Positions 16,892 to 57,717 of a stretch of 64,000 bases of DNA are shown piece after piece (the stretch's first letter is position 1; each line of letters starts with the position of its first letter). The stretch covers positions 76,572,001-76,636,000 of the forward strand of contig CM059432.1 of the NCBI GenBank assembly GCA_030390025.1, written 5' to 3'. The position numbers and the translations under genes are program-made. The DNA is from Squalus acanthias (taxonomy: Eukaryota). The notes beneath the pieces are model-generated. The model was given only the letters and a program-made list of their open reading frames with translations, did not search any database and had not been told where the DNA came from.

Positions 16892-17144
16892 TATACATTT
16901 CCTGGTTTAGAATATTCAAGAGAAAGACTAGAATGTCACATAAAGCCTCCTGTCGAAGTTGTTTAGGTTTCAATGAGGTTGTAGGAACTATTCTATATAT
17001 TGAAATACAGAAGGTGTTTTGTGCGAATTGTGGGAACCCAATAGCCAGATTCAGAGTGACGAGTTTACAGAGGTGTTTTCCATTATAAATGTGGACAAAA
17101 ATGAGAAGTCGCACAACACCAGGTTATAGTCCAACAGATTTATT

Positions 17145-17193
17145 TAATTTTACAAGCTTTCGGAGCAGTTCGCTCCTTCGTCAGGTAAGTTTA
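17145..17193 (-). ncRNA. Minimal type I hammerhead ribozyme (mirror copy)
   Basis: Exact reverse complement of 18655-18703. Confidence 0.8.
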
Positions 17194-17412
17194 GCAGTGA
17201 GAGAATCTCCCAGAATTCACAATTTAAACACAGACAAAATATATTCAAATCTTTCCTACATCAAAGAGCATAGCCAAGACAATGAGATGTGTCCCAGGGG
17301 GTCCAACGTGTCAAACCACCTGCTGGCTGCATATCCTGTCAATCTGTGTAGGTTCTTGTGTTAGCCTTTTTTTAAAAAAAAAACACCTGGGAAGACCGGC
17401 CATGATGTCAAG

Positions 17413-17888
17413 TCACGTTCTGTATCGTGACATGAACCCGATATCGCGATTGAGGCCATCCTCATGAGTGCGGAACTTGGCTATCAGTTTCTGCTCTATG
17501 ATTTTGCGCTGTCGTGTATCTCGAAGGCCGCCTTGGAGAACGCTTACCCGCATATCCGAGGCTGAATGCCCCTGGCTGCTGAAGTGTTCCCCGACTGGGA
17601 GGCAACCCTCCTGCCTGGCGATTGTTGCGCGGTGTCCGTTCATACGTTGTCTCAGTGTCTGCATGGTCTCGCCGATGTACCATGCTCTGGAGCATCCTTT
17701 ACTGCAACGTATCAGGTAGACAACGTTGGCCGAGTCACATGAGTATGTACCGTGTACCTGGTGGGTAGTGTCCTCACGTGTGATGATGGTATCTGTGTCC
17801 ATGATTTGGCATGTCTTGCAGAGGTTGCCATGGCAGGGTTGTGTGGTGTCTTGGTTGCTGTTCGCCTGAAAGATGGGTAATCTGCTGC
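17413..17888 (-). CDS. Penelope GIY-YIG endonuclease C-terminal fragment (left arm)
   Basis: PCHGNLCKTC..., NVVYLIRCSKGC..AWYIGET.QTLRQRMNGHR...VGEHF...EQKLIAKF.TH..GLN. Confidence 0.85.
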
Positions 17889-17889
17889 T

Positions 17890-18435
17890 GCTAAGGCCAT
17901 CCCCACGCCTCCACTACTCGCCTTCAAGCAGCCGCCTAACCTCAAAAGTACCATCGTTCGCAGCAGATTACCCATCTTTCAGGCGAACAGCAACCAAGAC
18001 ACCACACAACCCTACCATGGCAACCTCTGCAAGACATGCCAAATCATGGACACAGATACCATCATCACACGTGAGGACACTACCCACCAGGTACACGGTA
18101 CATACTCATGTGACTCGGCCAACGTTGTCTACCTGATACGTTGCAGTAAAGGATGCTCCAGAGCATGGTACATCGGCGAGACCATGCAGACACTGAGACA
18201 ACGTATGAACGGACACCGCGCAACAATCGCCAGGCAGGAGGGTTGCCTCCCAGTCGGGGAACACTTCAGCAGCCAGGGGCATTCAGCCTCGGATATGCGG
18301 GTAAGCGTTCTCCAAGGCGGCCTTCGAGATACACGACAGCGCAAAATCATAGAGCAGAAACTGATAGCCAAGTTCCGCACTCATGAGGATGGCCTCAATC
18401 GCGATATCGGGTTCATGTCACGATACAGAACGTGA
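17890..18435 (+). CDS. Penelope RT-EN linker + GIY-YIG endonuclease fragment (spacer + right arm)
   Basis: Open frame AKAIPTPPLLAFKQPPNLKSTIVRSRLP...CKTC...VVYLIRC...YIGET...GLNRDIGFMSRYRT*. 5'-truncated, no RT domain. Confidence 0.9.
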   Translation, partial: AKAIPTPPLLAFKQPPNLKSTIVRSRLPIFQANSNQDTTQPYHGNLCKTCQIMDTDTIITREDTTHQVHGTYSCDSANVVYLIRCSKGCSRAWYIGETMQTLRQRMNGHRATIARQEGCLPVGEHFSSQGHSASDMRVSVLQGGLRDTRQRKIIEQKLIAKFRTHEDGLNRDIGFMSRYRT

Positions 18436-18654
18436 CTTGACATCATGGCCGGTCTTCCCAGGTGTTTTTTTTTTTAAAAAAGGCTAACACAAGAACCTAC
18501 ACAGATTGACAGGATATGCAGCCAGCAGGTGGTTTGACACGTTGGACCCCCTGGGACACATCTCATTGTCTTGGCTATGCTCTTTGATGTAGGAAAGATT
18601 TGAATATATTTTGTCTGTGTTTAAATTGTGAATTCTGGGAGATTCTCTCACTGC

Positions 18655-18703
18655 TAAACTTACCTGACGAAGGAGCGAACTGCTCCGAAAGCTTGTAAAA
18701 TTA
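18655..18703 (+). ncRNA. Minimal type I hammerhead ribozyme in the Penelope 3' region
   Basis: taaacTTAC-CTGACGA-A-GGAGC(gaact)GCTCC-GAAA-GC-TT-GTAAaatta: core CUGANGA and GAAA, 5-bp stem II, palindromic AGCT stem III, stem I TTAC/GTAA. Confidence 0.8.
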
Positions 18704-18925
18704 AATAAATCTGTTGGACTATAACCTGGTGTTGTGCGACTTCTCATTTTTGTCCACCCCAGTCCAACGCCGGCATCTCCACATCATTATAAATGTGGAC
18801 ATGGAAATTTATAGTGGAAACAGTTGACACAAAAAGTATGGCAAGATAGATGGATAGATAATGTAAACTGGATTGTACTGACTGTGAATTAGAAGAGGCA
18901 TGTCCACATTCAGTATAGTTATAAA

Positions 18926-19110
18926 CTGTAAATGCTGGAAATCTGAAATAAAAGCAGAAAATGGTATAATTGCACAGCAGAGACATTAGCATCTCAATAG
19001 AGCAAAGACAGGTAAAAGTTTCAGGGCCAAGGTTTGTTACCCAAAATGCTAACCTGTTGTTTCTCTTTTCAGATACTGATGCAGCTGCTGTATATTGCCA
19101 GCATTTTCTA
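18926..19110. repeat. Degenerate foldback repeat related to 9829-9958
   Basis: cagaaaatggtataattgcacagcag ... ctgctgtatattgccagcattttct form imperfect inverted arms. Confidence 0.5.
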
Positions 19111-19672: not shown

Positions 19673-20877
19673 ATGGGAACCATTTATACCCTGTCATCCT
19701 GGTCCTCAGATTGGGAGGAAGAACAGCCGTGGCAACAGCAGAACCAGGCACAACAGCAGCAGCAACAACAGGAGCGCCAACCTCCTCCTCACCCACCTGA
19801 TGCTGCACAGGGCAGAGGGCGTCAGCACAGGGCTGCACCTCGCCACAGGAGATACCCCCAACACAGGGTTTACAGGCAGAGGATGAGCTTCCTCAACATG
19901 ACTGAGCAGCAGTGCCAAAGGAGGCTGAGACTTTTGGGAGAGGTAGTGGGTGACATCTGCGCAATGCTGCAGCAACACCTGGAGCCCAGAGAAGTGGGTG
20001 GATACCCCTTACCAGTGGCTGGCAAAGTCACCACCGCCCTCAATTTTTTTGCTTCAGGGTCCTTCCAGGGCTCATCAGCAGACATCTCCCAGTCGTCCGC
20101 AAACACTTGCATCACGCAGGTTACCGACGCCCTCTTTGCAAAGGTGCACAATTACATTCACTTCTCCACGGATGAGGCAAGTGTACGGTTGGCTTTGCAA
20201 AGCTGGCAGGCTTGCCAAGGGTGCAGGACGTCGTAGACTGCACACATGTGGCCATTAGGGCACCCCATCACAGCCCAGCTGTATTTGTCAACCGCAAGGG
20301 CTTCCACTCCCTTAACGTCCAGCTGGTGTGTAACCACAGGAAGAACATTATGCATGTTTGCGCAAAGTAACCTGGCAGTTGCCATGACCTGTTAAGCCTG
20401 CGGCAGTCTACTGTGCCTCCGCTCTTCAATCCGCCAACCCAACTTTCCGGATGGCTACTTGGAGACAAGGGCTATCCCCTGAAGACGTGGCTAATGACGC
20501 CGTTGAGGAGGCCATCAAACGAAGCAGAGGAGCGCTACAATGCCAGCCACATTTCCACCAGAGCCATCATCGAGCAAACCATCGGCTTGCTCAAAATGTG
20601 ATTCAGATGCCTTGACAGATCAGGTGGAGCCCTACAGTACTCACCAGCCAGGGTCTCCAGAATCGTCGTGGTCTGCTGTGCACTGCATAACATCGCACAG
20701 CAGCGTGGCTTGCAGCTGCCTGAGGAACAAGTGGCTCAGCGCATAGCCTGCTCAGATGAGAAGGAGGATGAGGAGGAGGAAGACCTTGCGGAGGTGGATG
20801 AGCCAGCTCCAGCAGCATGTGATCACATTGCTGCCCTGATGCAAGGGATGCACTAATCTTTGCCAGATTACCTTAGG
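19673..20877 (+). pseudogene. HARBI1-like DDE transposase (H4)
   Basis: Q-rich N-terminus, [66 protein letters not shown], acidic tail. Frameshift near 20190, stops near 20368 and 20599. Confidence 0.9.
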
Positions 20878-21151: not shown

Positions 21152-23122
21152 CTAATTGTGCTTTATCTTCCTCTTATGCGTGCTTCTACGCGGTGCTTCC
21201 CCTGTGGCTTCAGCAGATGTGGAGGCACCTTGCTCACTTTCATGCTGCTCCTGCTTCAACACTTTTGGTGGGCATCCTCTGGGTTTGCGAGCCTGTGAGG
21301 GCTCGCCAACAGTCTGCTCCTCCTGCGGCTGTGCAGGGGCTGAGACGCCCATCTCAGTTGGGGCTCTGACCGATGGTTACGCAATGGCATGGGAGTGTGA
21401 GCGCTTGGAGAGGAGCCCACACTTCCTTGTTGCCTGCCACCAACATCCCTCTCATGGGTCAGCCCCACTTCAGTGCCAGCAAATGGCTGGACAGCACCTT
21501 GCTGCACACCAGGGGGGCCATGAGGACCCGTATCTGCACTGGCAGTCCTCTTCAAAAGGACTTCCATGAAGCTCTGGTTTCTCTGCTCAGTAGCTGACCA
21601 TCGCTCCTCCAGAGATGTCAATCTATTCTGAACATTCACCATGTCTTCCTGACTCTGGCGACTTATTTCCTCCATGACCGTAGCCATCCTCTCCTCTACC
21701 GTAGGCATCCTTTCCACTGAGATAGCCATCCTTTCCATGGAGGTAGCCATCGTTTCCACGGAGGTTGCCATCCTTTCCACGGAGGTTGCCATCCTTTCCG
21801 TGGTGGTGCGTTCATGTGCCATTGCCTCCACAAAGGCACTGCTCATGTTAGACATCGTCTCCACACTCGCAGTAACCCTGGATGCAAAACCTGCCAGAGA
21901 CTCCTGCACCTGTTCCTGGAGTTCCAGCACCACTCTCTTTCTGGATGGCCCCAGAGGCACAGGGTCCACATGCAGCTGAGCAGAGCTGGGAGCGCCCTGC
22001 GGCCTCCGACGAGGACTCTCCACTGCTGTCCCTGTCTCCACCATCTGCTAATGCTCACTTGTGAGCTGTGATACACCAGGTGACAACACTACTCTATCTC
22101 GCGAAGGTCCCACCGAGGTGTGCATATCTGCGCTGGTGCTGGGTGCGCTTAATACTGCTGATGCTGCGCCCTCAGAGGTTGCAGCTTCCTCTGAGGAGTC
22201 TTCACGCTCTTCCTCCTGGACAGTGGGGAGGGGGGCTCTCAATGGTCCTGTGGGGGAGTAAAGGCATGAGTTAGACATGTGATATTAACGTTGCATGCAC
22301 ATTGAATTGTGCAGATGATCATAACTCAATCTGTATGAGCATCAGATGCCATATCAGTCACTCATGCAACGTAAATGAGAGAGATGCAAATCTATTCTGT
22401 CACCAGCGCCCGTCTGCCCATCCCCCACTTCCAGATCCTCATCACCTCTGATTATTTCGAGGGCCGCCTCCTCAGCGTTGGTCATGTGGGCAATGGAAGG
22501 TGGCCCTCCTCCTGTCCTAGCCCTCTCCCAATTATTGTGGGCTCTCTTTTCCTGCAACAAGTGGAGTTTGAGTGAGAACGATGGAGTGAATGTAGAGAAG
22601 CCATAGCATAGATGCTTAGAAAGAGACAAAGATGGAGTGAGGTGCCAATACCAAGGACCTCCCTGTGCGTTGTTAGTTGTTGGCATTGCATAACAGTGAT
22701 AGCGAGTGTGAGGGCAGCAAAGTTGAATAGTGGGGTGAGTCTGTACATAGAGAGAGGGATGGTTAAGGGTGCAAGGGATGTAAGGGTAAAGTGGGATGTG
22801 CAGGAGTAGGTTGACAATGCAGAGTGCTGGTGATGAGAGGAGATGGGGAGCAGATTGAGTATAAGTGTGATGTTATACTCACTTTTCCTGAGTGAACCAG
22901 GTCATTAAACCTTTTCCTGCACTGGACCCAGGAGCGAGCACACAATGATCTGGAGCTGACCTCCTCAGCAATTTGCAGCCAGGCTGCTTTGCTTTGCTGA
23001 GGAGGCTTCCTCTGTCCAGAGGATGGGAATATTACCTCCTGGCGCCCTCTCACTTCATCCACAAGAGCTTGGAGGGAGTCATCATCAAAGTGGGGAGAGG
23101 CCTTGGCTCTTGCAGTAGTCAT
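21152..23122 (-). pseudogene. Harbinger Myb/SANT-like gene (H4): exons 23122-22883, 22551-~22400, 22247-21152
   Basis: FDDDSLQALVDEV...AWLQIAEEV...WVQCRKRFNDL; then EKRAHN.ERARTGGGPP; exon 3 carries a heptad repeat and a basic C-terminus. Confidence 0.85.
21675..21805 (-). repeat. 21-bp coding tandem repeat (ERMATSV heptad, ~6 copies)
   Basis: + strand unit ggaggttgccatcctttccac; protein ERMATSV ERMATSV ETMATSM ERMAISV. Confidence 0.85.
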
Positions 23123-24006
23123 GGGAGCAGTTGGCAGCATGAAAACCAACATAAAAGGATAAGACTGAAAGAAGGCTGCATAGGCCCCTTAAATGAAGCT
23201 GGCTGACAGACGTCAGCAGAGGCGAGCAGCAGACCTGAAACCACTGATTGGGCCGGGCAGCGCGCACGCAGGGATTCTATAGGGCAATTAAGGTAGAATT
23301 CCAATTTCTGACTGGCTGAAAGCGGCGGCGGGACCGGAACCCGCCGGCCACCTGACCCGCACCCAACCCGCCAATCGCGGCCACAGTAAGAGTACATGGA
23401 TATTCGCTGCAAAATAGGGCACAGGAATTTGACACAGTACTAGTTTCTAAAGTATATTTAGAATGTAGCTGAAACTGGAATTCATTACTGAGCAGTGCTC
23501 AGGGGAACACTAACCTTTACAGGCAGCAATTTGGTCCTATGAAATACTGCCAAAGATGAAATTACAGCACTTGTTTATTGCAATATGGATAGCACAGGAA
23601 AAAAGATGCTGATTGTTATCAAGAGTATCCATTCAACTTTTGCCAGTTGCATGGTACGTAAGTCAAACTGCCTGAATGATAGACATTATTTTTAGTGAAT
23701 GATTACAGCAGTGGAATTCCCAGCTTCCCTCCAGTAGACTAAAAAAGTCCTTCGTAATGGATAATTGTTCAGATCACCATGCTATGTGGGCACCCGTTGG
23801 ATTAAATTGGTATTTTCTCCCCTAAGCACAACATTGTGAATTCAACTTTCATATCAAGGGCAGGGAGGGGGGAAATCAAGAAATCAGGCTGGATCTTATT
23901 TGCTTTTCTCTGGGACAATGTTCACACTGTTGTTGTTAATTGTTGCACCAAATTATTTCAAAACAAAGTCAGCCAAATGAGGAAAATGCTGCTATTCAGC
24001 TTCAAA

Positions 24007-26421: not shown

Positions 26422-29400
26422 GGCCTAGAAATCAGATAAGGCCCGTAAATGGCCGGTGCCATCGTGGGGTGAGCTTTACGTGCCCGTAAAAAGATCGCAG
26501 GCAGCACCGGAACTTGGTGCTGACTGCTGATTAACATTATTGTGCCGTTCAGCCGCGCGCTGAACGGCTGAATGCCCAGCAAGGACTCTGGGTTAGGTCG
26601 AGACTCGGGGCCAGTCTCGGGGGGAGGTCGAGACTCGGGACTCGGGGTCAGTCTCGGGAGGAGGTCGGGACTCGGGGTCAGTCTCGGGAGATGGTCGGGA
26701 CTCGGGGTCAGTCTCGGGGGGAGGTCGAGACTCGGGGTCAGCGTCGAGGGGAGGTCGAGACTCGGGGTCACTATCGGGGGGAGGTCGAGACTCGGGGTCA
26801 GCATCGAGGGGAGGTCGGGACTCGGGACTCGGGGTCAGTCTCGGGGGGAGGTCGGGACTTGGGGTCAGCATCGAGGGGAGGCCGAAACTCGGGGTCAGTC
26901 TCGGGGGGAGGTCGGGACTCGGGGTCAGTCTCGGGGGAAGGTCGGGACTCGGGGTCAGTCTCGGGGGGAGGTCGGGACTCGGGGTCAGTCTCGGAGGGAG
27001 GTCGGGACTCGGGGTCAGTATCAGGGGGTGGTCGGGACTCGGGGCCAGTCTCGGGAGATGGTCGGGACTCGGGGCCAGTCTCGGGGGGAGGTCGGGACTC
27101 GGGGTCAGTCTCGGGGGGAGGTCAGGACTCGGGGCCAGTCTCGGGAGATGGTCGGGACTCGGGGCCATTCTTGGGGGGAGGTCGGGACTCGGGACTCGGG
27201 GTCAGTGTCAGGGGGAGGTCGGGACTCGGGGTCAGTCTCGGGGGGAGGTCAGGACTCGGGGCCAGTCTCGGGAGATGGTCGGGACTCGGGGCCATTCTTG
27301 GGGGGAGGTCGGGACTCGGGACTCGGGGTCAGTGTCAGGGGGAGGTCGGGACTCAGGGTCAATGTCAGGGGGAGGTCGGGACTCGGGGTCAGTATCGGGG
27401 GGAGGTTGGGACTCGGGGTCAGTCTCGGGGGGAGGTCAGGACTCGGGGCCAGTCTCGGGAGATGGTCGGGACTCGGGGCCATTCTTGGGGGGAGGTCGGG
27501 ACTCGGGACTCGGGGTCAGTGTCAGGGGGAGGTCGGGACTCAGGGTCAATGTCAGGGGGAGGTCGGGACTCGGGGTCAGTATCGGGGGGATTTGGGACTC
27601 GGGGTCAGTCTCGGGGGGAGGTCGGGACTCAGGGTCAGTATCGGGGGGAGGTCGGGACTCGAGGTCAGTCTCGGGGGGAGGTCGGGACTCAGGGTCAGTC
27701 TCGGGGGGAGGTCGGGACTCGGGGTCAGTCTCGGGGGGAGGTCGGGACTCAGGGTCAGTCTCGGGAGATGGTCGGGACTCGGGGTCAGTCTCGGGGGGAG
27801 GTCGGGACTCAGGGTCAGTCTCGGGGGGAGGTCGGGACTCGGGGTCAGTCTCGGGGGGAGGTCGGGACTCAGGGTCAGTCTCGGGAGATGGTCGGGACTC
27901 GGGGCCAGTCTCAGGGGGAGGTCGGGACTCGGGGTCAGTCTCGGGGGGAGGTCAGGACTCGGGGTCAGTCTCGGGAGATGGTCGGGACTCGGGGCCATTC
28001 TTGGGGGGAGGTCGGGACTCGGGACTCGGGGTCAGTGTCAGGGGGAGGTCGGGACTCAGGGTCAATGTCAGGGGGAGGTCGGGACTCAGGGTCAGTATCG
28101 GGGGGAGGTTGGGACTCGGGGTCAGTCTCGGGGGGAGGTCGGGACTCAGGGTCAGTATCGGGGGGAGGTCGGGACTCGGGGTCAGTCTCGGGGGGAGGTC
28201 GGGACTCAGGGTCAGTCTCGGGGGGAGGTCGGGACTCGGGGTCAGTCTCGGGGGGAGGTCGGGACTCGGGGTCAGTCTCGGGTGATGGTTGGGACTCGGG
28301 GTCAGTCTCGGGGGGAGGACGAGACTCGGGGTCACTATCGGGGGGAGGTCGAGACTCGGGGTCAGCATCGAGGGGAGGTCGGGACTCGGGACTCGGGGTC
28401 AGTCTCGGGGGGAGGTCGGGACTTGGGGTCAGCATCGAGGGGAGGCCGAAACTCGGGGTCAGTCTCGGGGGGAGGTCGGGACTCGGGGTCAGTCTCGGGG
28501 GAAGGTCGGGACTCGGGGTCAGTCTCGGGGGGAGGTCGGGACTCGGGGTCAGTCTCGGAGGGAGGTCGGGACTCGGGGTCAGTATCAGGGGGTGGTCGGG
28601 ACTCGGGGCCAGTCTCGGGAGATGGTCGGGACTCGGGGCCAGTCTCGGGGGGAGGTCGGGACTCGGGGTCAGTCTCGGGGGGAGGTCAGGACTCGGGGCC
28701 AGTCTCGGGAGATGGTCGGGACTCGGGGCCATTCTTGGGGGGAGGTCGGGACTCGGGACTCGGGGTCAGTGTCAGGGGGAGGTCGGGACTCGGGGTCAGT
28801 CTCGGGGGGAGGTCAGGACTCGGGGCCAGTCTCGGGAGATGGTCGGGACTCGGGGCCATTCTTGGGGGGAGGTCGGGACTCGGGACTCGGGGTCAGTGTC
28901 AGGGGGAGGTCGGGACTCAGGGTCAATGTCAGGGGGAGGTCGGGACTCGGGGTCAGTATCGGGGGGAGGTTGGGACTCGGGGTCAGTCTCGGGGGGAGGT
29001 CAGGACTCGGGGCCAGTCTCGGGAGATGGTCGGGACTCGGGGCCATTCTTGGGGGGAGGTCGGGACTCGGGACTCGGGGTCAGTGTCAGGGGGAGGTCGG
29101 GACTCAGGGTCAATGTCAGGGGGAGGTCGGGACTCGGGGTCAGTATCGGGGGGATTTGGGACTCGGGGTCAGTCTCGGGGGGAGGTCGGGACTCAGGGTC
29201 AGTATCGGGGGGAGGTCGGGACTCGAGGTCAGTCTCGGGGGGAGGTCGGGACTCAGGGTCAGTCTCGGGGGGAGGTCGGGACTCGGGGTCAGTCTCGGGG
29301 GGAGGTCGGGACTCAGGGTCAGTCTCGGGAGATGGTCGGGACTCGGGGTCAGTCTCGGGGGGAGGACGAGACTCGGGGTCACTATCGGGGGAGGTCGAGA

Positions 29401-32400
29401 CTCGGGGTCAGCGTCGAGGGGAGGTCGGGACTCGGGACTCGGGGTCAGTCTCGGGGGGAGGTCGGGACTCGGGGTGAGCGTCGAGGGGAGGCCGAAACTC
29501 GGGGTCAGTCTCGGGGGGAGGTCGGGACTCGGGGTCAGTCTCGGGGGGAGGTCGGGACTCGGGGTCAGTCTCGGGGGGAGGTCGGGACTCGGGGTCAGTC
29601 TCGGGGGGAGGTCGGGACTCGGGGTCAGTATCGGGGGGAGGTCGCGACTCGGGGTCAGTCTCGGGGGAAGGTCGGGACTCGGGGTCAGTCTCGGGGGGAG
29701 GTCGGGACTCGGGGTCAGTCTCGGAGGGAGGTCGGGACTCGGGGTCAGTATCGGGGGTAGGTCAGGACTCGGGGTCAGTATCAGGGGGGGGTCGGGACTC
29801 GGGGCCAGTCTCGGGAGATGGTCGGGACTCGGGGCCAGTCTCAGGGGGAGGTCGGGACTCGGGGTCAGTCTCGGGGGGAGGTCAGGACTCGGGGTCAGTC
29901 TCGGGAGATGGTCGGGACTCGGGGCCATTCTTGGGGGGAGGTCGGGACTCGGGACTCGGGGTCAGTGTCAGGGGGAGGTCGGGACTCAGGGTCAATGTCA
30001 GGGGGAGGTCGGGACTCAGGGTCAGTATCGGGGGGAGGTTGGGACTCGGGGTCAGTCTCGGGGGGAGGTCGGGACTCAGGGTCAGTATCGGGGGGAGGTC
30101 GGGACTCGGGGTCAGTCTCGGGGGGAGGTCGGGACTCAGGGTCAGTCTCGGGGGGAGGTCGGGACTCGGGGTCAGTCTCGGGGGGAGGTCGGGACTCGGG
30201 GTCAGTCTCGGGAGATGGTTGGGACTCGGGGTCAGTCTCGGGGGGAGGACGAGACTCGGGGTCACTATCGGGGGGAGGTCGAGACTCGGGGTCAGCATCG
30301 AGGGGAGGTCGGGACTCGGGACTCGGGGTCAGTCTCGGGGGGAGGTCGGGACTTGGGGTCAGCATCGAGGGGAGGCCGAAACTCGGGGTCAGTCTCGGGG
30401 GGAGGTCGGGACTCGGGGTCAGTCTCGGGGGAAGGTCGGGACTCGGGGTCAGTCTCGGGGGGAGGTCGGGACTCGGGGTCAGTCTCGGAGGGAGGTCGGG
30501 ACTCGGGGTCAGTATCAGGGGGTGGTCGGGACTCGGGGCCAGTCTCGGGAGATGGTCGGGACTCGGGGCCAGTCTCGGGGGGAGGTCGGGACTCGGGGTC
30601 AGTCTCGGGGGGAGGTCAGGACTCGGGGCCAGTCTCGGGAGATGGTCGGGACTCGGGGCCATTCTTGGGGGGAGGTCGGGACTCGGGACTCGGGGTCAGT
30701 GTCAGGGGGAGGTCGGGACTCGGGGTCAGTCTCGGGGGGAGGTCAGGACTCGGGGCCAGTCTCGGGAGATGGTCGGGACTCGGGGCCATTCTTGGGGGGA
30801 GGTCGGGACTCGGGACTCGGGGTCAGTGTCAGGGGGAGGTCGGGACTCAGGGTCAATGTCAGGGGGAGGTCGGGACTCGGGGTCAGTATCGGGGGGAGGT
30901 TGGGACTCGGGGTCAGTCTCGGGGGGAGGTCAGGACTCGGGGCCAGTCTCGGGAGATGGTCGGGACTCGGGGCCATTCTTGGGGGGAGGTCGGGACTCGG
31001 GACTCGGGGTCAGTGTCAGGGGGAGGTCGGGACTCAGGGTCAATGTCAGGGGGAGGTCGGGACTCGGGGTCAGTATCGGGGGGAGGTTGGGACTCGGGGT
31101 CAGTCTCGGGGGGAGGTCGGGACTCAGGGTCAGTATCGGGGGGAGGTCGGGACTCGAGGTCAGTCTCGGGGGGAGGTCGGGACTCAGGGTCAGTCTCGGG
31201 GGGAGGTCGGGACTCGGGGTCAGTCTCGGGGGGAGGTCGGGACTCAGGGTCAGTCTCGGGAGATGGTCGGGACTCGGGGTCAGTCTCGGGGGGAGGACGA
31301 GACTCGGGGTCACTATCGGGGGGAGGTCGAGACTCGGGGTCAGCGTCGAGGGGAGGTCGGGACTCGGGACTCGGGGTCAGTCTCGGGGGGAGGTCGGGAC
31401 TCGGGGTGAGCGTCGAGGGGAGGCCGAAACTCGGGGTCAGTCTCGGGGGGAGGTCGGGACTCGGGGTCAGTCTCGGGGGGAGGTCGGGACTCGGGGTCAG
31501 TCTCGGGGGGAGGTCGGGACTCGGGGTCAGTCTCGGGGGGAGGTCGGGACTCGGGGTCAGTATCGGGGGGAGGTCGCGACTCGGGGCCAGTCGCGGGAGA
31601 TGGTCGGGACTCGGGGCCAGTCTCGGGAGATGGTCGGGACTCGGGGCCAGTCTCGGGGGGAGGTCGGGACTAGGGGTCAGTCTCGGGGGGAGGTCGGGAC
31701 TCGGGGTCAGTATCGGGGGGAGGTTGGGACTCGGGGTCAGTATCGGGGGGTGGTCGGGACTCGGGGCCAGTCTCGGGGTGAGGTCGGGACTCGGAGCCAG
31801 TCTCGGGGGGAGGTCGGGACTCGGGGCCAGTCTCGGGAGATGGTCGGGACTCGGGGCCATTCTTGGGGGGAGGTCGGGACTCGGGACTCGGGGTCAGTGT
31901 CAGGGGGAGGTCGGGACTCAGGGTCAGTGTCAGGGGGAGGTCGGGACTCGGGGTCAGTATCGGGGGGAGGTCGGGACTCGGGGTCAGTATCGGGGGGAGG
32001 TCGGGACTCGGGGCCAGTCTCGGGGTGAGGTCGGGACTCGGGGCCATTCTTGGGGGGAGGTCGGGACTCGGAGCCAGTCTCGGGGGGAGGTCGGGACTCG
32101 GGGCCATTCTTGGGGGGAGGTCGGGACTCGGGGTCAGTATCGGGGGGAGGTCGGGACTCGGGGTCAGTATCGGGGGGAGGTCGGGACTCGGGGTCAGTAT
32201 CGGGGGGAGGTCGGGACTCGGGGTCAGTATCGGGGGGAGGTCGGGACTCGGGGTCAGTATCGGGGGGAGGTCGGGACTCGAGGTCAGTATCGGGGGAGGT
32301 CGGGACTCGGGGTCAGTATCGGGGGGAGGTCGAGACTCGGGGTCAGTATCGGGGGGAGGTCGGGACTCGGGGTCAGTATCGGGGGGAGGTCGGGACTCGG

Positions 32401-33562
32401 GGTCAGTATCGGGGGGAAGTCGGGACTCGGAGTCAGTATCGGGGGGAGGTCGGGACTCGGGGTCAGTATCGGGGGGAGGTCGAGACTCGGGGTCAGTATC
32501 GGGGGGAGGTCGGGACTCGGGGTCAGTATCGGGGGGAGGTCGGGACTCGGGGTCAGTATCGGGGGGAGGTCGAGACTCGGGGTCAGTATCGGGGGGAGGT
32601 CGGGACTCGGGGTCAGTATCGGGGGAGGTCGGGACTCGGGGTCAGTATCGGGGGAGGTCGAGACTCGGGGTCAGTATCGGGGGGAGGTCGAGACTCGGGG
32701 TCAGTATCGGGGGGAGGTCGGGACTCGGGGTCAGTATCGGGGGGAGGTCGGGACTCGGGGCCAGTATCGGGGGGAGGTCGGGACTCGGGGTCAGTATCGG
32801 GGGGAGGTCGGGACTCGGGGTCAGTATCGGGGGGAGGTCGAGACTCGGGGTCAGTATCGGGGGGAGGTCGAGACTCGGGGTCAGTATCGGGGGGAGGTCG
32901 GAACTCGGGGTCAGTATCGGGGGGAGGTCGGGACTCGGGGCCAGTATCGGGGGGAGGTCGGGACTCGGGGTCAGTATCAGGGGGAGGTCGGGACTCGGGG
33001 ACAGTATCGGGGGGAGGTCGGGACTCGGGGTGAGTATCGGGGGGAGGTCGGGACTCGGGGTCAGTATCGGGGGGAGGTCGGGACTCGGGGTCAGTATCGG
33101 GGGGAGGTCGGGACTCGGGGTCAGTCTCGGGGGATAGTCGGACTCGGGGTCAGTATCGGGGGGTTCCTGGAGTTCGGTGCCAGGACGGGGGTAGATCGGA
33201 GAGGGCCTGGAGGTCAGAGTTGGGAGTGAGGTCAGAGATGATAAAAGGTAAGTACTTATCTTTTTTCATTCGGCGCTGTTTAACGTTTGTCTTCCTGAGA
33301 GAAAACAGCGCTGGCGCTGGCTGCCTCAGACGCAAGCCAAATTTGCAAGAGGGAGCAGAAGCAGGCATTAGGCCCCTTATTTGAATATGTTAATTGCCTA
33401 ACTCCTGCTTCAGATGAAGCTAAACGGTGCCTCTTTGTTTTACCCTCACCAATATGACGTCCGGCACGGCCCACGCTGGAAGTGGGCAGAAGCGAGGCGG
33501 ATGCCATTTTTTCCACAAAACCGGCCTTAACAGCTGGCGCTAAGGTGCCGAACTTCAGGCCC
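26422..33562. mobile_element. Harbinger-type non-autonomous element hosting a minisatellite array
   Basis: Left GGCCTAGAAATC and right cgaacttcaggccc resemble other Harbinger-type ends. GC-rich subterminal sequence. TIR match is imperfect and no TSD is seen. Confidence 0.55.
26583..33163 (+). repeat. G-rich 30-bp minisatellite (~215 units) with higher-order duplications
   Basis: Consensus GGGACTCGGGGTCAGT(C/A)TCGGGGGGAGGTC. 37-bp variants carry an extra GGGACTC. Confidence 0.98.
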
Positions 33563-40107: not shown

Positions 40108-40701
40108 CTTTTAACTAACTTTTTAAAAATTATTTTGGCACAGACATCAGTAATGCAATGACATCATTGTGCATCTCTTGTTTACACACCTGCCAAACTA
40201 ACACACCAATGATTTTACCAGGAAGCCCCTTTTAATGTTTTTGGTTATGGTTTGTACTGAACTACTAATGAAATGGGCTAAATTATGAGAGATTTTTAAA
40301 TTGGACATTTTATTCATATTTTTATAAATAAAGATGCAAAATATAAAGGGGGAGAAATTCAGTATCGCCCCGTTTGGGGCGCGATTATCGGCTGGGCGCA
40401 AAGTTTAGCGCCTGGTGCTAATTATCGCCTCCGACTGCAAACTTGGCTTTTATCACCCCTGGAGGTGATTGGAGGGCTAAATCAGGCGCTGCACACCTGT
40501 CGCAAAGGCCGAGGAGCGAGGCGCTAACTCAGAGCGCAGGCGCAGTGCAGGTGATGTCAGTTAGCGATGGAACACAGACACACTGGCGCCGGACAGTTCT
40601 TAAAGGGGAGGGTCGATCTTGCTCTCCAGCCACACCCTGCTCATTGGAGCCTTGAATCTCGGCCTGGAGAGACCTGTGACTACATTTTCCAGCCAAGGAC
40701 T

Positions 40702-41927
40702 ATGGAGAGGGTGAGAGAACGAGCTCAGCGCTTCAGTGAGCGGGCCTTGGAGGCTCTGGTTGGCACGGTGGAGCACAGAAGATCTATACTCTTCCCTGAG
40801 AGTGGCAGGAGGCCTTTGCCGCGCGAGTACAGAAGAGTGTGGAGGGAGGTGGCTCAGCATGTCTCCTCCAGGAGCATGGTGCCCAGGACCCATGTTCAAT
40901 GCCGCAAAAAGTTCAACGACCTCACTCGGGTCGTCAGGGTGAGTGGCTTTTTTTCAATACCTCTCCATCCCTCCATCTTAACCTCACTCTATGGCCAGAG
41001 GGTCTTAAAACCCCAATGCCCAACACTTATCCAACACCTATGGCCCTCTCATGAAACACACACGCATATTCCACACTTTGCATACAGTAAGGGCTATTCA
41101 ACTATGGGAGGCACATCAGGCAAGACCATGGCTGTATATTTACTCAGACGCCGTCCTTTTTCTTGCAGGCCAAGCTATCTCATAATAGGAGACAGCAGCA
41201 ACGGGCGGGTGGAGGGCGGCCTCAGCTGCAACCCCTCAGCGATCTTGAGGCGCGCGTCCACAGGATTGTGGCAAGCCGGGTGATCGGTCCCGTCGCCTCT
41301 GGAGAGGCCGTCCCCATTCTGGACAGCAATGGTAAGGTCATCACCTTTCTCTCCTCTCTCATTCCACTTGTCCCTCACAACACCAGCCTTTGACACTTTC
41401 AATCCAACTTACTAAATCGCTGCACTCCTTCCTCCCTTACTGCCCCCCTGTCCTCACGCTAAAGCCACTCTTGTACCTCCCTGCTTTCAGATGGTGATTC
41501 ACCAGCTGAGGAGACGGGCCCTCAAGCTGTCAGTGGGAGTGAAGCTGCAGGCGAGGAGGAAGATGAAGCCGGAGCATCAGCGCCACCCTCTCCCGAGGAA
41601 GCCCATGCCCACACTGGGAACACGCCTTCCCTGGAGGGGAGCAGGGGGGAAGGGTCTGATGAGGGTGAAGCTCCAGGACCCAGCAGGCAGCAGCAACGCG
41701 ATGTGGCTAGGGAAGCTCAGGGGCCTTCTCCCCGGAGGGAGAGTAGGCCAGTGAGTCCTGCTGCACTGGACGCAGAGGAGGAGCGGCTCATCGCTGAAAT
41801 GAACACCCAGGCGGTGCACATGCACACTCAGCTCATGGGTGCAGTGGGAAGGGTGCCCGAATGCATTGATGCACTGGCAAGGAGTGTGGAGAACTTCGCT
41901 GTAGCACAGGCATTGGCTGGGTCCTGA
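40702..41927 (+). CDS. Harbinger Myb/SANT-like DNA-binding protein; exons 40702-40938, 41169-41331, 41491-41927 (278 aa)
   Basis: MERVRERAQRFSERALEALV...WREVA...QCRKKFNDLTRVVR. GT-AG introns of phase 0 and 1 join into one stop-free 837-nt frame. Confidence 0.88.
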
Positions 41928-42918
41928 GGATTACCAGGTTATGCAGCATGCAGCACACAACTATGAAGAGGGAGACTCGCTCAGGCGAGTACTGCAGGGC
42001 TCCTCCTGAGTGGTCCAGACAGCGGAACCGTTGCTTGAGCACACCGATCGTCTGCTCAGCGATGTTCCTGGTGGCGAGATGGCTCTCGTTGTACCGCAGC
42101 TCAGCAGGGGTGTTGGGCATACGGAGCGGTGTCATCAGCCAGGTGCAGAGTGGATAACCCTTGTCCCCGAGGAGCCAACCACTTGGCTGATGCGGTGCCT
42201 GGAAAAGTTCTGGCACAGCAGTCTGGTGCAGGATGAATGCATCGTGGCTGCTGCCAGGATAGCGGGCATTGACAGCGAGTATCAGCTGTCTGTGGCCACA
42301 GACCAACTGGAGGTTTAAGGAGTGGAACCCCTTGGGGTTGCAGAAATCCTCTGCATTCTCATGCGGTGCGCGCAATGCCACATGCGTGCAGTCAATGGCA
42401 CCCTGCACCATGGGGAAGCCCGCTATCCTCGCAAAGCCCAATGCGCGTTCATGCTGTTTGGCCCAGGTCATCGGGAAAGAGATGTACTGGCGTCTCCTTT
42501 TATAGAGGGCATTTGTGACCTGACGGATGCAGCAATGGACCACGAACTGGGAGATATTTACGATGTCCCCAGTAGCTGCTTGAAAGGAGCCGGTGGCATA
42601 AAAGTTCAGAGCCACTGTGACCTTCACTGCCACCAACAGAGACGTCCTGGTCCTCAGTAGAGGCTGCAGATCTGTCTGCAGCGGGTGGCAGAGCTCAGTG
42701 ACTACCTCCTTGCTGAAGCGCAGCCTTCGCAAACACTGCTCCTCAGACAAATTAATGTAGGAGAATTGTTGGCGAAATACCCTGGGAGGGTAAGGTCTCC
42801 TGTACAGAGGCCTGTTGGCCCTCCTCTGTCTGGCCAGGATTGCCACTGTCTCTCTGCGTCTATGTTGCCTCCGAATCTGCAGGCGCAGGACGACGCCCTG
42901 AATCAGTGCAGCCCCCAT
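41833..42918 (-). CDS. HARBI1-like DDE transposase (361 aa from MGAAL)
   Basis: Uninterrupted ORF with [35 protein letters not shown]. It is the element's own transposase, not a domesticated host gene. Confidence 0.93.
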   Translation of the reverse strand: MGAALIQGVVLRLQIRRQHRRRETVAILARQRRANRPLYRRPYPPRVFRQQFSYINLSEEQCLRRLRFSKEVVTELCHPLQTDLQPLLRTRTSLLVAVKVTVALNFYATGSFQAATGDIVNISQFVVHCCIRQVTNALYKRRRQYISFPMTWAKQHERALGFARIAGFPMVQGAIDCTHVALRAPHENAEDFCNPKGFHSLNLQLVCGHRQLILAVNARYPGSSHDAFILHQTAVPELFQAPHQPSGWLLGDKGYPLCTWLMTPLRMPNTPAELRYNESHLATRNIAEQTIGVLKQRFRCLDHSGGALQYSPERVSLFIVVCCMLHNLVILRTQPMPVLQRSSPHSLPVHQCIRAPFPLHP

Positions 42919-44159
42919 AGTCTCTTGGTAATCAAAGTAATGAAGGCCAAAATCCAAAAGTACCTGCAAAGTGATGCTCAGTAGCCAAAACTACTTTACA
43001 CAGCGTTGACTCTATGCAGAAGTCTCTCCTTCTCTCTCTCAGAATCTCTCTCTCTGTCAGAATGAGTGGTGCAAAAATGTCTACCACAGAAAAAGCCAGG
43101 AAGAGGCCACCTTTAAATAGCGCCCCCCCAGCCCCACAGCGACTGGGAAACGTTCCAGTCTACCTGTCGTTGCTTGCGCCAGGCGGAAAGGAGGGGGGCG
43201 CCACTCAATATCCGGTCCGGGGCGCCACAAGGGCGTTGCACGCTCGACTGATGTCAAGATCTGCGGGCGCAGGAGATCGGGGCAGTATTGTTTAGCGCCG
43301 CCGCAAAATGTCTGGTCAATTTCGCGAGCGGCGCAGACATCGCTGCGCCCGGGCGCTAGTTGCTTTGCGCCCCATTAGCGCCCTCTTAAGGCGCTAACGG
43401 GAGGCGCAAACCAACCAAATTTTCCCCCCAAAATTTCTTGCCAAACTAGTTATGCAGTTATCAGGAGTCACCTGTACTGGAGCTCTCAGACTTGCATTGT
43501 TGACTTTTAGCTGATTTTTGAGAAGGCTCCAGTAACTAGATTTATGTAGGGCTGAATTTTGCCGGCGCTCAGAGGGCGGGTTCAGAGGCGGGTCCGCTGT
43601 CAAAATGGCAGTGATTGACAGCGGGGCGGAAGTCCGCTCTGAACCCACCTCCTTGTTAATTTCCCAAGTGCCGGCTCTGCCTGTGGTTTGCAGACCCGGC
43701 ACTAAGCGACGGGTCAGGCAATTGAGATACTTAAGAAGCTGCTTAAAGCTAGTTGAGCAGCATTTTACCAGGTCCTAATGATTTTTCCATGTTTTTTACG
43801 AGGTTCCCAGCACTCGGGAATTACGTCAGGTAAGTGTGTCGGGTTCTAAATGACTCTGCATTGCTGTAAATAGTTGACAGCTGCAAAAGTGGTCTAAAAG
43901 CTACCATTTCACAGCTGTTCAATTTCCAATCTTAGAAGCTGGAGCCTGCAGGATTCGGAATACACTTTTCAGCTTTATGGAGGCTTGAAGTGTTTGGAGC
44001 AAACTCTCTATCCAGTGTCACCTCCTTGGAGCAACCTGTCTCACCATTGACAGATCGCTTCTGCCATCTCAACTTCAGCTGCCATCTATTCCATCAGCAT
44101 CAGTGCCCTTGAAAAAATCTCACCTCAGTCGTCTAAATCCCTCCACGATCAGCTCCAAA

Positions 44160-52504: not shown

Positions 52505-52662
52505 AAACCAACATAACAAAAACAGATTATCTGGTCATTATCACATTGCTGTTTGTGGGACCTTGCTGTGCGCTAATTGGCTGTCGCTTTTCCTACATTA
52601 CAACAGTGACTACACTTCCAAAGTGCTTCATTGGCTGAAAAGCCCTTTGGGACATCCGGTGG
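52505..52662 (+). mobile_element. 3' half of the Deu-type SINE
   Basis: Reverse complement match to ~51010-51150. Confidence 0.8.
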
Positions 52663-52671
52663 TCTGAACAT

Positions 52672-53975
52672 CTGAACTGTAGCATTTTGTAATCTCTCTC
52701 CATTTAAATAATAATTTGCTTTTTTATATTTCCTGCCAAAGTGGATAACCTCACACTTTCCCACATTATACTCCATCTGCCAAATGTTTGCCCATTCACT
52801 TAATCTGTCTATATCCCTTTGCAGATTCTTTGAGTCCTCTGCACAACTTGCTTTCCCACCCATCTTTGGATCATCCGCAAAATTGGCTACATTATACTCG
52901 GTCCCTTCATTCAAGTCATTAATGTAGATTGTAAATAGTTCAGGCCTCAGCACCGATCCCTGTGGCACCCCACTAGTTACCGTTTGCCAACCGGAAAATG
53001 ACCCATTTATCCCAACTCTCTGCTTTCTGTTAGTTAGCCAGTTTTCTATCCATGCTAATATATTACCCCCAACCTTGTAAGCTCTTATCTTGTGTAGTAA
53101 CCTTTTATGTGGCACCTTATCGAATACCTTCTGGAAATCCAAATACACGACATCTACTGGTTCCCCTTTATCCACCCTGCTCATTACATCCTCAAAGAAT
53201 TCCAGCAAATTTGTCAAACATGATTTCCCTTTCATAAAACCATGCTGACTCTGCTTGACTATATTATGATTTTCTAAATGTCCTGCTACCACTTCCTTAA
53301 TGATGGACTCCAGCATTTTCCCAGTGACAGATGTTAGGCTAACTGGTCGATAGTTGCCTGCTTTCTGTCTCCCTCCTTTCTCAAATAGGGGCGTTACATT
53401 TGCAGTTTTGCAGTCCGCTGGGACCTCCCCAGAATCCAGGGAATTTTGGTAGATTACAACCAATGCATCCACTATCTCTGCAGCCACCTCTTTTAAGACT
53501 CTAGGATGCAGGCCATCGGGTTCAGGGGACTTGTCCACCTTTAGTCCCATTAGTTTGCCTAGTACTTTCTCTCTAGTGATAGTGATTGTTTTAAGTTCCT
53601 CCCCCCCCCCCACCCCAATAGCCCCTTGATTATCCATTATTGGAATGCTTTTAGTGTCTTCTACCGTGAAGATCGATACAAAATATTTGTTCAAAGTCAC
53701 CGCCATTTCCCTGTTTCCCATTATTAATTCCCCAGACTCATCCTCTAGGGGACCAATGTTTACTTTAGCTACTCTCTTCCTTTTTATATACCTGTAGAAG
53801 CTTTTACTGTCTGTTTTTATATTTCTTGCTAGCTTACACTCATAAGCTATCTTCTCTCTATCATTTTTTTAGTTGTCCTTTGCTGGTTTTTAAAAATTTC
53901 CCAATCCTCTGGCCTTTCACTATTCTTCGCAACATTGTATGCTTTTGTTTTCAATTTGATACCATCCTTTACTTC
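52672..53975 (-). mobile_element. CR1-type LINE internal RT fragment
   Basis: ORF 52573-53721 with [37 protein letters not shown]. Confidence 0.92.
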
Positions 53976-56569: not shown

Positions 56570-57717
56570 GATGTAACGAGCAGGGTGCAAAAATGGGAAC
56601 CAGTAGATGTAGTGTATTTGGATTTCCAGAAGGCATTCGATAAGGTGCCACATAAAAGGTTACTGCACAAGATAAGAGCTCTCGAGGTTGGGGGTAATAT
56701 ATTAGCATGGATAGAGGATTGGCCAACTAACAGAAAACAAAGAGTCGGGATAAATGGGTAATTTTCCGGTTGGCAAACTGTAACTAGTGGGGTGCCACAG
56801 GGATCAGTGCTGGGGCCTCAACTATTTACAATCTATATTAATGACTTGGATGAAGGGACCGAGTGTACTGTAGCCAAATTTACTGATGATACAAAGATAG
56901 GTGGGAAAGCAAGTTGTGAGGAGGACACAAAGGGCTGGATATTGTGAATGGAGGCAAGTTGGAGGCGGGACTGCTGCTTGTCGTGTCAATGTCCCGCCTT
57001 CATCCTCGCCTGACCAATCAGAGGGATTTGCCCCTGATTGAGCTTGTTAAGCCCGCCCTGCGGGCTCAGCAGGCCAATTAGGGAGGAAGTCACTGACAGA
57101 TCACATCAACGTCAGATGTGCTATCTGTCAAGACTTCTTGAAAGAAGAAATGACAGTGTTTGACGGCTGTCAAACACTGACATTCTCTTTAGTTTGATGA
57201 GACTTTGTGGTGAGGACTCATCAAACCTTTCAACTTTGTAAATTTCACATGTCTATAAAATCAGAGGATCCAACAGCCATTATGTGAAATTGACAAGGAG
57301 AATATCGGCTCTCCCCATCCAGCGCGGCTAAAGGCTGTAGAAAGAAAATAAGGTAAGTGCACACTTTTTTAAACTTATCATGCACCTTACATACTTACCA
57401 CTCCACACTTGCACCCATCACTCACCTCTACACCTTACTTCCAGGTGCCTCCGACCAGCGTAGACCTCCTCCACGTCTCCTCCAACCCGGCGGGGTTCTC
57501 CGAGGTCTGGAAGCCTTCACCTGTGAAGGTAAAATGGCACTAATCCTTTTTTCTGCCTGTTAACTACCTGTTAACAGGCAGATAAAAGGATTAAATGCCT
57601 TTCCCGCCTCCAGGAGATGGGCCCTGAAGCTGTACATCTTCCCGTCTCCTGGCAAAAGGGCACGGATGCGGGATGGGGGCAGGTTTGCCATCCGTCCCCA
57701 CTTTCTCTGATTTTAAT

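What the first reader, a model, noticed from the sequence alone, without database searches (positions are those of the whole stretch)
18655..18703. Minimal hammerhead ribozyme in the Penelope 3' region, present twice in opposite orientation
Seen: TTAC-CTGACGA-A-GGAGC-gaact-GCTCC-GAAA-GCTT-GTAA. It has both core boxes, a 5-bp stem II, and stem I TTAC/GTAA extendable to 7/9 bp. Stem III is reduced to the palindrome AGCT, and there is an extra A after CUGANGA. Predicted cleavage is after 18694. A mirror copy lies at 17145-17193. Known: Penelope-like elements carry minimal hammerheads that are thought to cleave as dimers through the palindromic stem III. Inference: the copies are inverted, so each transcript has only one sense ribozyme plus its perfect antisense. 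Cis-dimerisation is impossible, and read-through RNA may mask its own ribozyme.
Basis: partly seen in the sequence, partly recalled or inferred. Interest (0 to 1): 0.7.

Follow-up and report, generated by a model that had tools for sequence, protein, structure and literature searches.

The report
Penelope retroelement minimal hammerhead, inverted pair
The small self-cutting RNA motif is real, but it is the known kind carried at the end of Penelope-like jumping genes, and it appears twice in mirror image only because this young, truncated copy was inserted head-to-head, as these elements often are.

Summary
The motif is there as described (18655-18703 +, mirror 17145-17193 -). It lies in the terminal repeat (pLTR) of a 5'-truncated Penelope-like element whose endonuclease is 87-89% identical to shark proteins. 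The mirror copy is part of a 798-bp inverted repeat (796 of 798 complementary), with a 30-nt tail on one end and a target-site duplication: the insertion shape already published for these elements. The extra A, the palindromic stem III and opposite-strand pairs are all in Cervera and De la Peña 2014. Added here: a distant relative, found through its protein, keeps the same hammerhead with 3 compensatory pairs and none broken among 8; among genomic copies the listed changes fall mostly in loops and at N7. Promoter-like motifs just upstream suggest outward transcripts without the antisense arm. Cleavage and transcription were not shown. The scan noted this kind before in other genomes. Ordinary; interest low.

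The parts
17081..17097 (+). Left target-site duplication, 17 bp at most; the last 7 nt also match the end of the left arm
   Evidence: loose ends in run X7 join left-flank-like sequence to the right flank (table 7)
17091..17888 (-). Inverted 5'-truncated copy without tail (left arm, 798 bp)
   Evidence: 796 of 798 complementary to 17960-18757; differences at 17373 and 17834
17145..17193 (-). Mirror minimal hammerhead; predicted cut between 17154 and 17153
17413..17888 (-). Endonuclease frame of the left arm; has the CX4CxxC linker motif
17889..18787 (+). 5'-truncated direct copy with tail
   Evidence: tblastn to P0002, residues 464-642, 87%; loose ends pile at 18787
17889..17959 (+). 71-nt stretch present only in the direct copy (loop of the inverted repeat); the junction at 17888|17889 looks blunt or slipped by one triplet
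17890..18435 (+). End of the element's ORF: linker and GIY-YIG endonuclease with CCHH residues; no reverse transcriptase in this copy; the first linker Cys is Tyr here
18620..18652 (+). Promoter-like motifs: TTTAAA at 18620 and TCACT at 18648 (inferred start near 18650)
   Evidence: L001 has TATAAA at 949 and TCACT at 976; same motif pair described for rotifer pLTRs. Not tested functionally
18655..18703 (+). Minimal type I hammerhead: stem I 18660-63/18695-98, core 18664-70, extra A 18671, stem II 18672-76/18682-86, GAAA 18687-90, AGCT 18690-93, predicted cut after 18694
18704..18709 (+). AATAAA directly after the ribozyme; absent in L001
18712..18770 (+). Segment conserved with L001 (TGTTGGACTATAA ... 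CAGTCCA), able to form a stem; spans the tail-less end point
   Evidence: fold z only -0.8 to -1.0
18758..18787 (+). 30-nt tail on one end only; last 3 nt shared with the duplication
18785..18801 (+). Right target-site duplication

Best explanation
This is a young, dead-on-arrival insertion of an abundant Penelope-like retroelement (C-terminal endonuclease, Neptune/Nematis-type linker) in a shark-like genome. Its pLTR carries a minimal type I hammerhead that cannot close stem III alone. In full-length partial-tandem elements, two sense copies on one RNA (or the element's protein) would supply the active fold and cut weakly after U17 (inferred from published members). At this locus one insertion event made two truncated copies head to head. 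Most likely both strands of an AT-rich target were nicked and each 3' end primed reverse transcription from one of two start sites 30 nt apart, giving one arm with and one without the tail (inferred). The mirrored ribozyme is a passenger of that event, and the locus is probably inert for cleavage. Shown: motif, covariation with one relative, element identity, architecture, duplication. Inferred: cleavage, dimer, promoter, priming route.
For: Motif and chance controls. L001, found through its protein (56% identity), has the same motif 278 nt after its stop (229 here): of 8 pairs compared, 4 unchanged, 3 compensatory, 1 wobble, 0 broken, and the same extra A. Among genomic copies, substitutions at 2% or more touch 1 of 32 core and stem positions (a U-A to U.G wobble) and 6 of 11 loop, N7 or bulge positions, Fisher p=0.0005. 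Element identity: 87% to a shark RT-plus-endonuclease protein; GIY-YIG in 6 of 19 aligned relatives. Both arms share alleles that are the minority in the family (18483, 18498, 18504), as expected from one template. Tail, duplication and inverted copy match published shapes; both-strand cutting and extension and two start sites bounding the tail were shown in vitro for a lizard element. ATT lies on both strands in the duplication.
Against: Constrained positions are not less variable than the rest of the UTR (1 of 32 versus 17 of 303, p=1.0), so the within-genome signal is loop hypervariability rather than proven purifying selection. I left the distal stem I out of that count; it has one listed substitution and two deletions, and a deletion is listed at 18682 in stem II. 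Covariation rests on 2 sequences; L002 ends too early to test. The swapped dimer (-16.1 kcal/mol) is not more stable than two monomers (-17.0 with the same stems; -10.7 each at minimum energy). The 7-nt match to the target at the left end differs from the homology-free priming seen in vitro. No listed contig bridges the right junction. The window's own frame has no Pfam hit.
Confidence: 0.85

Rival explanations
1. Same element and ribozyme, but the inverted arm arose by fold-back self-priming of one cDNA (or on an antisense template), and its new end was joined to the target by 7-nt microhomology.
For: Self-priming was proposed for head-to-head Penelope repeats. Arms are nearly identical and the left end matches the target over 7 nt.
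Against: No palindrome or clear primer homology at the central junction. The 30-nt offset equals the usual tail, which matches two RT start sites in vitro.
Confidence: 0.3
2. The inverted pair is a selected control device: read-through RNA forms an 800-bp hairpin that masks the ribozyme and perhaps feeds small-RNA silencing.
For: A spanning RNA pairs all 49 nt of the motif. Antisense small RNAs from rotifer Penelope copies are reported.
Against: The repeat covers the endonuclease frame as well, not only the ribozyme; the copy is truncated, young, possibly absent on another allele (record 8); no host exon among 143 frames of 52 aa or more in 9.5-26.4 kb. Inverted copies also occur in Naiad elements, which lack canonical hammerheads.
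Confidence: 0.05
3. The motif is a conserved protein-binding or promoter-proximal structure of hammerhead ancestry that rarely cuts in vivo.
For: Monomers inactive, dimers weak in vitro. The lizard ribozyme cut only with protein, was not needed for insertion in vitro, and no RNA-seq ends mapped to its cut site. U at position 17 is a slower cleavage base (recalled, from no call).
Against: All catalytic core residues are kept in the window, in L001 and among listed variants; the C3/G8 rescue in the lizard element shows real ribozyme chemistry.
Confidence: 0.3
4. The inverted repeat is an assembly artefact (fold-back read).
For: Arms nearly identical; no listed contig bridges the right junction, and an X1 contig at single-copy depth has 219 other letters before 18792.
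Against: A 17-bp duplication flanks the unit, the tail is on one side only, the arms differ at 2 sites, and related empty sites join the two flanks.
Confidence: 0.03

Closest known systems
Minimal hammerheads (min-HHR) in pLTRs of metazoan Penelope-like elements (Cervera and De la Peña 2014, PMC4209133)
   Same: Type I layout, no real stem III, palindromic 15.2-16.2, extra nucleotide between 9 and 10.1, G10.1-C11.1 pair, 4-bp stem I, location in the pLTR; opposite-strand pairs also reported.
   Different: Stem II is 5-6 bp (7-8 in Schistosoma); the two copies lie 1.5 kb apart (about 100-700 bp reported). Sharks are not named in the parts I read (1-2 of 4; supplements not read).
Insertion units of endonuclease-positive Penelope-like elements (Arkhipova 2013, PMC3846280; Craig 2021, PMC8557442)
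   Same: 5' truncation, adjacent inverted copy head to head, 30-nt tail on one end, target-site duplication, TATA-like plus TCACT motif in the pLTR.
   Different: Both copies are truncated inside the ORF end; duplication 7-17 bp because of 3-nt and 7-nt junction homologies (8-10 bp in the rotifer cases read).
PAc, Poseidon of Anolis carolinensis (Frangieh 2024, PMC11167929)
   Same: Hammerhead in the pLTR, two end points that bound a tail, AT-rich target with ATT.
   Different: Other clade (this one has the Cys linker). PAc's start codon lies in stem II; here the likely start codon is about 90 nt past the cut site (inferred). PAc primed without homology in vitro; here one end has 7 nt.
Non-LTR retrozymes (PMC7229834; bioRxiv 10.64898/2026.07.22.740005)
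   Same: Type I hammerheads, dimer-dependent activity in amphibian members, proposed PLE origin.
   Different: Those are non-coding head-to-tail tandem repeats; this is a coding remnant in head-to-head orientation with no tandem array.

Membership tests
Minimal type I hammerhead of PLEs | CUGANGA and GAAA boxes with NUH triplet | tested here: met
   CTGACGA, GAAA, CUU
Minimal type I hammerhead of PLEs | Stems I and II with covariation | tested here: met
   3 compensatory, 1 wobble, 0 broken of 8 pairs, but only 2 sequences, 48 compatible
Minimal type I hammerhead of PLEs | Extra nucleotide after A9; G10.1-C11.1; palindromic 15.2-16.2 without stem III | tested here: met
   features as listed
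Minimal type I hammerhead of PLEs | Located in the terminal repeat of a PLE | tested here: met
   229 nt after the ORF stop and 93 nt before the element end; no second direct pLTR in this copy
Minimal type I hammerhead of PLEs | Self-cleavage as dimer or with protein | not testable with these tools
   only energy models, which do not favour the dimer
Rfam hammerhead families | Score against a curated model | tested here: not met
   no hammerhead match at E<=10; does not bear on the minimal kind, which lacks stem III
Endonuclease-positive PLE | RT followed by C-terminal GIY-YIG endonuclease in one ORF | tested here: met
   for relatives P0002, P0005, P0020 (RVT_1; window frame aligns to their C-termini; GIY-YIG in 6 of 19). 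This copy lacks the RT
Endonuclease-positive PLE | Inverted truncated copy, tail, target-site duplication | tested here: met
Neptune/Nematis clades | CX2-5CxxC linker plus CCHH residues | tested here: met
   CHGNLCKTC in the left arm; C88, C92, H128, H134 region in alignments; definition
Neptune clade specifically | Placement in an RT tree | not tested
Non-LTR retrozyme | Non-coding tandem repeats with a hammerhead in each unit | tested here: not met
   no tandem array at the locus; coding remnant present

The most novel reading that the evidence does not exclude
The hammerhead sits about 14 nt behind the element's own transcription start (TATA-like box and TCACT about 28 nt apart in both the window and a relative at 56% protein identity). 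Protein-assisted cleavage would then remove a capped leader of about 45 nt and act as a switch between mRNA and template. The insertion would also record in vivo priming on both target strands, one end guided by 7 nt of target homology, which the in vitro work did not see.
Probability: 0.2. Interest if true: 0.45.

Novelty: new member of a known kind. Interest (0 to 1): 0.15.

Why it matters
Little as it stands: it extends a known motif and a known insertion shape to a shark-like family. What these ribozymes do in the Penelope cycle is still open, and a young, abundant family with clean junctions is handy material for testing where the RNA starts and how inverted copies form. This single locus does not settle either.

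Tried and rejected
No genome is held, so copies could not be aligned one by one. Rfam: no hammerhead; the best hit, MIR1858, only reflects the centre of the inverted repeat. Viral contigs: no relative by protein (47 pattern hits, none confirmed); 13 hits of a downstream pattern, none with the core; 120 hits of a core pattern, 1 with weak 3-bp stems and none encoding a PLE; 0 hits of the conserved downstream 21-mer. Plasmids: no match. Prokaryote genome contigs: 1 locus of 40 candidates (L002), ending before the motif. Metagenomes: 1 of 179 candidates (L001). Runs: no RNA holder listed; X12 is only guessed to be RNA, so its cover of the element and lack of cover at 18837-18893 are no evidence on expression. 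The rise in depth downstream of the cut site was considered as a sign of copies truncated at the cut; rejected, because loose ends before 18703 still read GAAAGCTTGT with other upstream stems, i.e. other subfamilies (table 7). Host exons: none among 143 frames; only Harbinger-type domains and one weak hit; shorter exons would be missed. PDB: only a weak GIY-YIG hit, E 0.16. A paper search for Penelope, shark and ribozyme gave 2 listings, neither on this by title or abstract start. Search of earlier findings by sequence: nothing.

Full report
Observation. The motif is present as described. Stem I is 18660-63/18695-98, extendable past a 2x2 loop to 7 of 9 pairs; the core is CTGACGA at 18664-70; an extra A follows; stem II is GGAGC/GCTCC; GAAA is at 18687-90; AGCT at 18690-93; the predicted cut follows U at 18694. 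The 49-nt stretch folds better than all 200 shuffles (z -3.3), though with wider flanks the signal vanishes (z 0.07). The two boxes match 2 times in the window against 0.16 expected; a stem-aware descriptor, set after seeing the motif, gives 2 here and 0 in 100 random windows. The two matches are a single observation. Rfam has no hammerhead match.

Surroundings. Both copies lie in an inverted repeat, 17091-17888 and 17960-18757, with 2 mismatches in 798 bp. The frame 17890-18435 is 87% identical to the C-terminus of a 643-aa shark protein with a reverse transcriptase domain, and 60% and 52% to two full-length 881-882-aa proteins; the closest shorter hit is 89%. GIY-YIG is found in 6 of 19 aligned relatives but not in the window's own frame. 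The left arm has the CX4CxxC linker; the right copy has Tyr at its first Cys. By the clade definitions in Craig 2021 (passages) this is Neptune or Nematis type; no tree was built. No other copy is in the window. The right copy goes 30 nt further (18758-18787). A 17-bp direct repeat flanks the unit (17081-97, 18785-801); 7 nt of it match the left arm's end and 3 nt the tail's end, so the true duplication is 7-17 bp.

Family data. Contigs of 4 runs were laid on 18400-18960. Summed depth is 1e5-1e6 over the element in X1 and X3 against about 10 in unique flank in X1: the family is very abundant (depth is no copy number). Loose ends pile at 18787 in 4 of 4 runs (115, 107, 20 and 53 records), and their consensus starts with G each time (agreement about 0.4); one contig continues GGCTACC. 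This hints that the tail ends at a start codon, so that the region is a pLTR (inferred). In X7, 174 contigs carry before 18785 a consensus that matches the left flank 17051-17080 at 23 of 30 letters (my count by eye): the target is an older repeat and empty sites exist. X1 record 8 has 219 other letters before 18792 at single-copy depth, a possible empty allele; its match starts 7 nt later than an identical empty site would give, and its letters were not shown. No listed piece bridges the right junction (38159 pieces not shown).

Conservation. The table of substitutions at 2% or more has 30 rows. They touch 1 of 32 core and stem positions (18697 A to G, a wobble) and 6 of 11 free positions, p=0.0005, but the constrained set does not differ from the rest of the UTR (17 of 303, p=1.0). 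I left out the 6 distal stem I positions, where one substitution and two deletions are listed; deletions are also listed at 18677-82, the last in stem II. L001, retrieved by protein alone, has the same motif: 4 pairs unchanged, 3 compensatory, 1 wobble, 0 broken of 8, the same extra A and the same GAAAGCTTGT. It also shares a downstream segment, has TATAAA and TCACT 27 nt apart (TTTAAA and TCACT 28 nt apart here), and has a reverse-transcriptase piece inverted head to head against its endonuclease piece. In L001 the TCACT also pairs in distal stem I, so it may be structural. As a control, 1 of 120 viral matches to the bare core pattern had even 3-bp stems.

Mechanism. Shown elsewhere: a minimal monomer did not cut, dimers and trimers cut weakly (Cervera 2014, parts 1-2 of 4 read); the lizard ribozyme cut only with the element's protein and was not needed for insertion in vitro; that protein cut and extended both target strands from two start sites that bound the tail (Frangieh 2024, parts 1-2 of 4). 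Inferred here: nicks on both strands, two primed cDNAs from one template, joined at their truncated ends. Both arms share minority alleles, which fits one template but also fold-back, the route proposed in Arkhipova 2013 (passages). The central junction does not decide. The swapped dimer is not favoured by nearest-neighbour energies.

A spanning RNA buries the motif, and there is no second sense copy. But an RNA starting near 18645 folds stems I and II freely, no spanning RNA or host exon was found, and inverted copies also occur in Naiad elements without canonical hammerheads. Masking is a consequence, with no sign of selection.

Novelty. Hammerhead-bearing retrozymes were reported in one chondrichthyan genome (bioRxiv 2026, part 1 of 5 and passages; supplements closed). 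PMC7229834 was seen as passages. Four paper searches showed no paper on this shark family; supplements of the 2014 paper, which I did not read, may list shark motifs. The scan's own notes hold several like cases in other genomes; they are unchecked and I use them only as context. One of them suggests that the template starts just before the ribozyme, which agrees with the promoter-like motifs I had already seen.

Verdict. Real, correctly described, new member of a known kind. Interest 0.15.

Noticed in passing
window 17077-17090 and 18807-18820: The target site is an imperfect 14-bp inverted repeat (13 of 14) inside an older repeat family; the insertion fell in this potential hairpin.
   Followed up: partly
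window 26595-33163: G-rich 30-bp tandem array, 215 copies, strong GC skew, with longer higher-order repeats.
   Followed up: no
window 20176-20853 (+) and 22766-23188 (-): Broken Harbinger/PIF-type transposase (DDE_Tnp_4 in three frames pieces) and a Myb/SANT frame on the other strand.
   Followed up: partly
window 40555-41283 (+) and 41833-42990 (-): A second Harbinger-type pair: Myb/SANT frame and a 385-aa open DDE_Tnp_4 frame.
   Followed up: partly
window 57628-60270 (+); 52573-53868 (-): LINE-type frames: 880 aa with endonuclease and RT, and 431 aa with RT.
   Followed up: no
window 18704-18709: AATAAA right after the ribozyme with GT-rich sequence downstream; a poly(A) site here would lie upstream of the two element end points. 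Not in L001.
   Followed up: no
L002 (record titled as a bivalve gill symbiont scaffold): A 1.3-kb contig in a bacterial assembly encodes this Penelope-type RT and endonuclease at 58-60% identity; probably host DNA in the assembly.
   Followed up: no
protein hits: Pieces of this endonuclease appear in annotated isoforms of many shark genes (septin 5a, XRCC5, PPP1R12A, cytochrome P450, FAM210B): exonised copies or annotation errors.
   Followed up: no
window 18695-18760: The segment after the cut site is shared by more subfamilies than the ribozyme stems (depth rises several-fold; loose ends show other stem II sequences before GAAAGCTTGT).
   Followed up: partly
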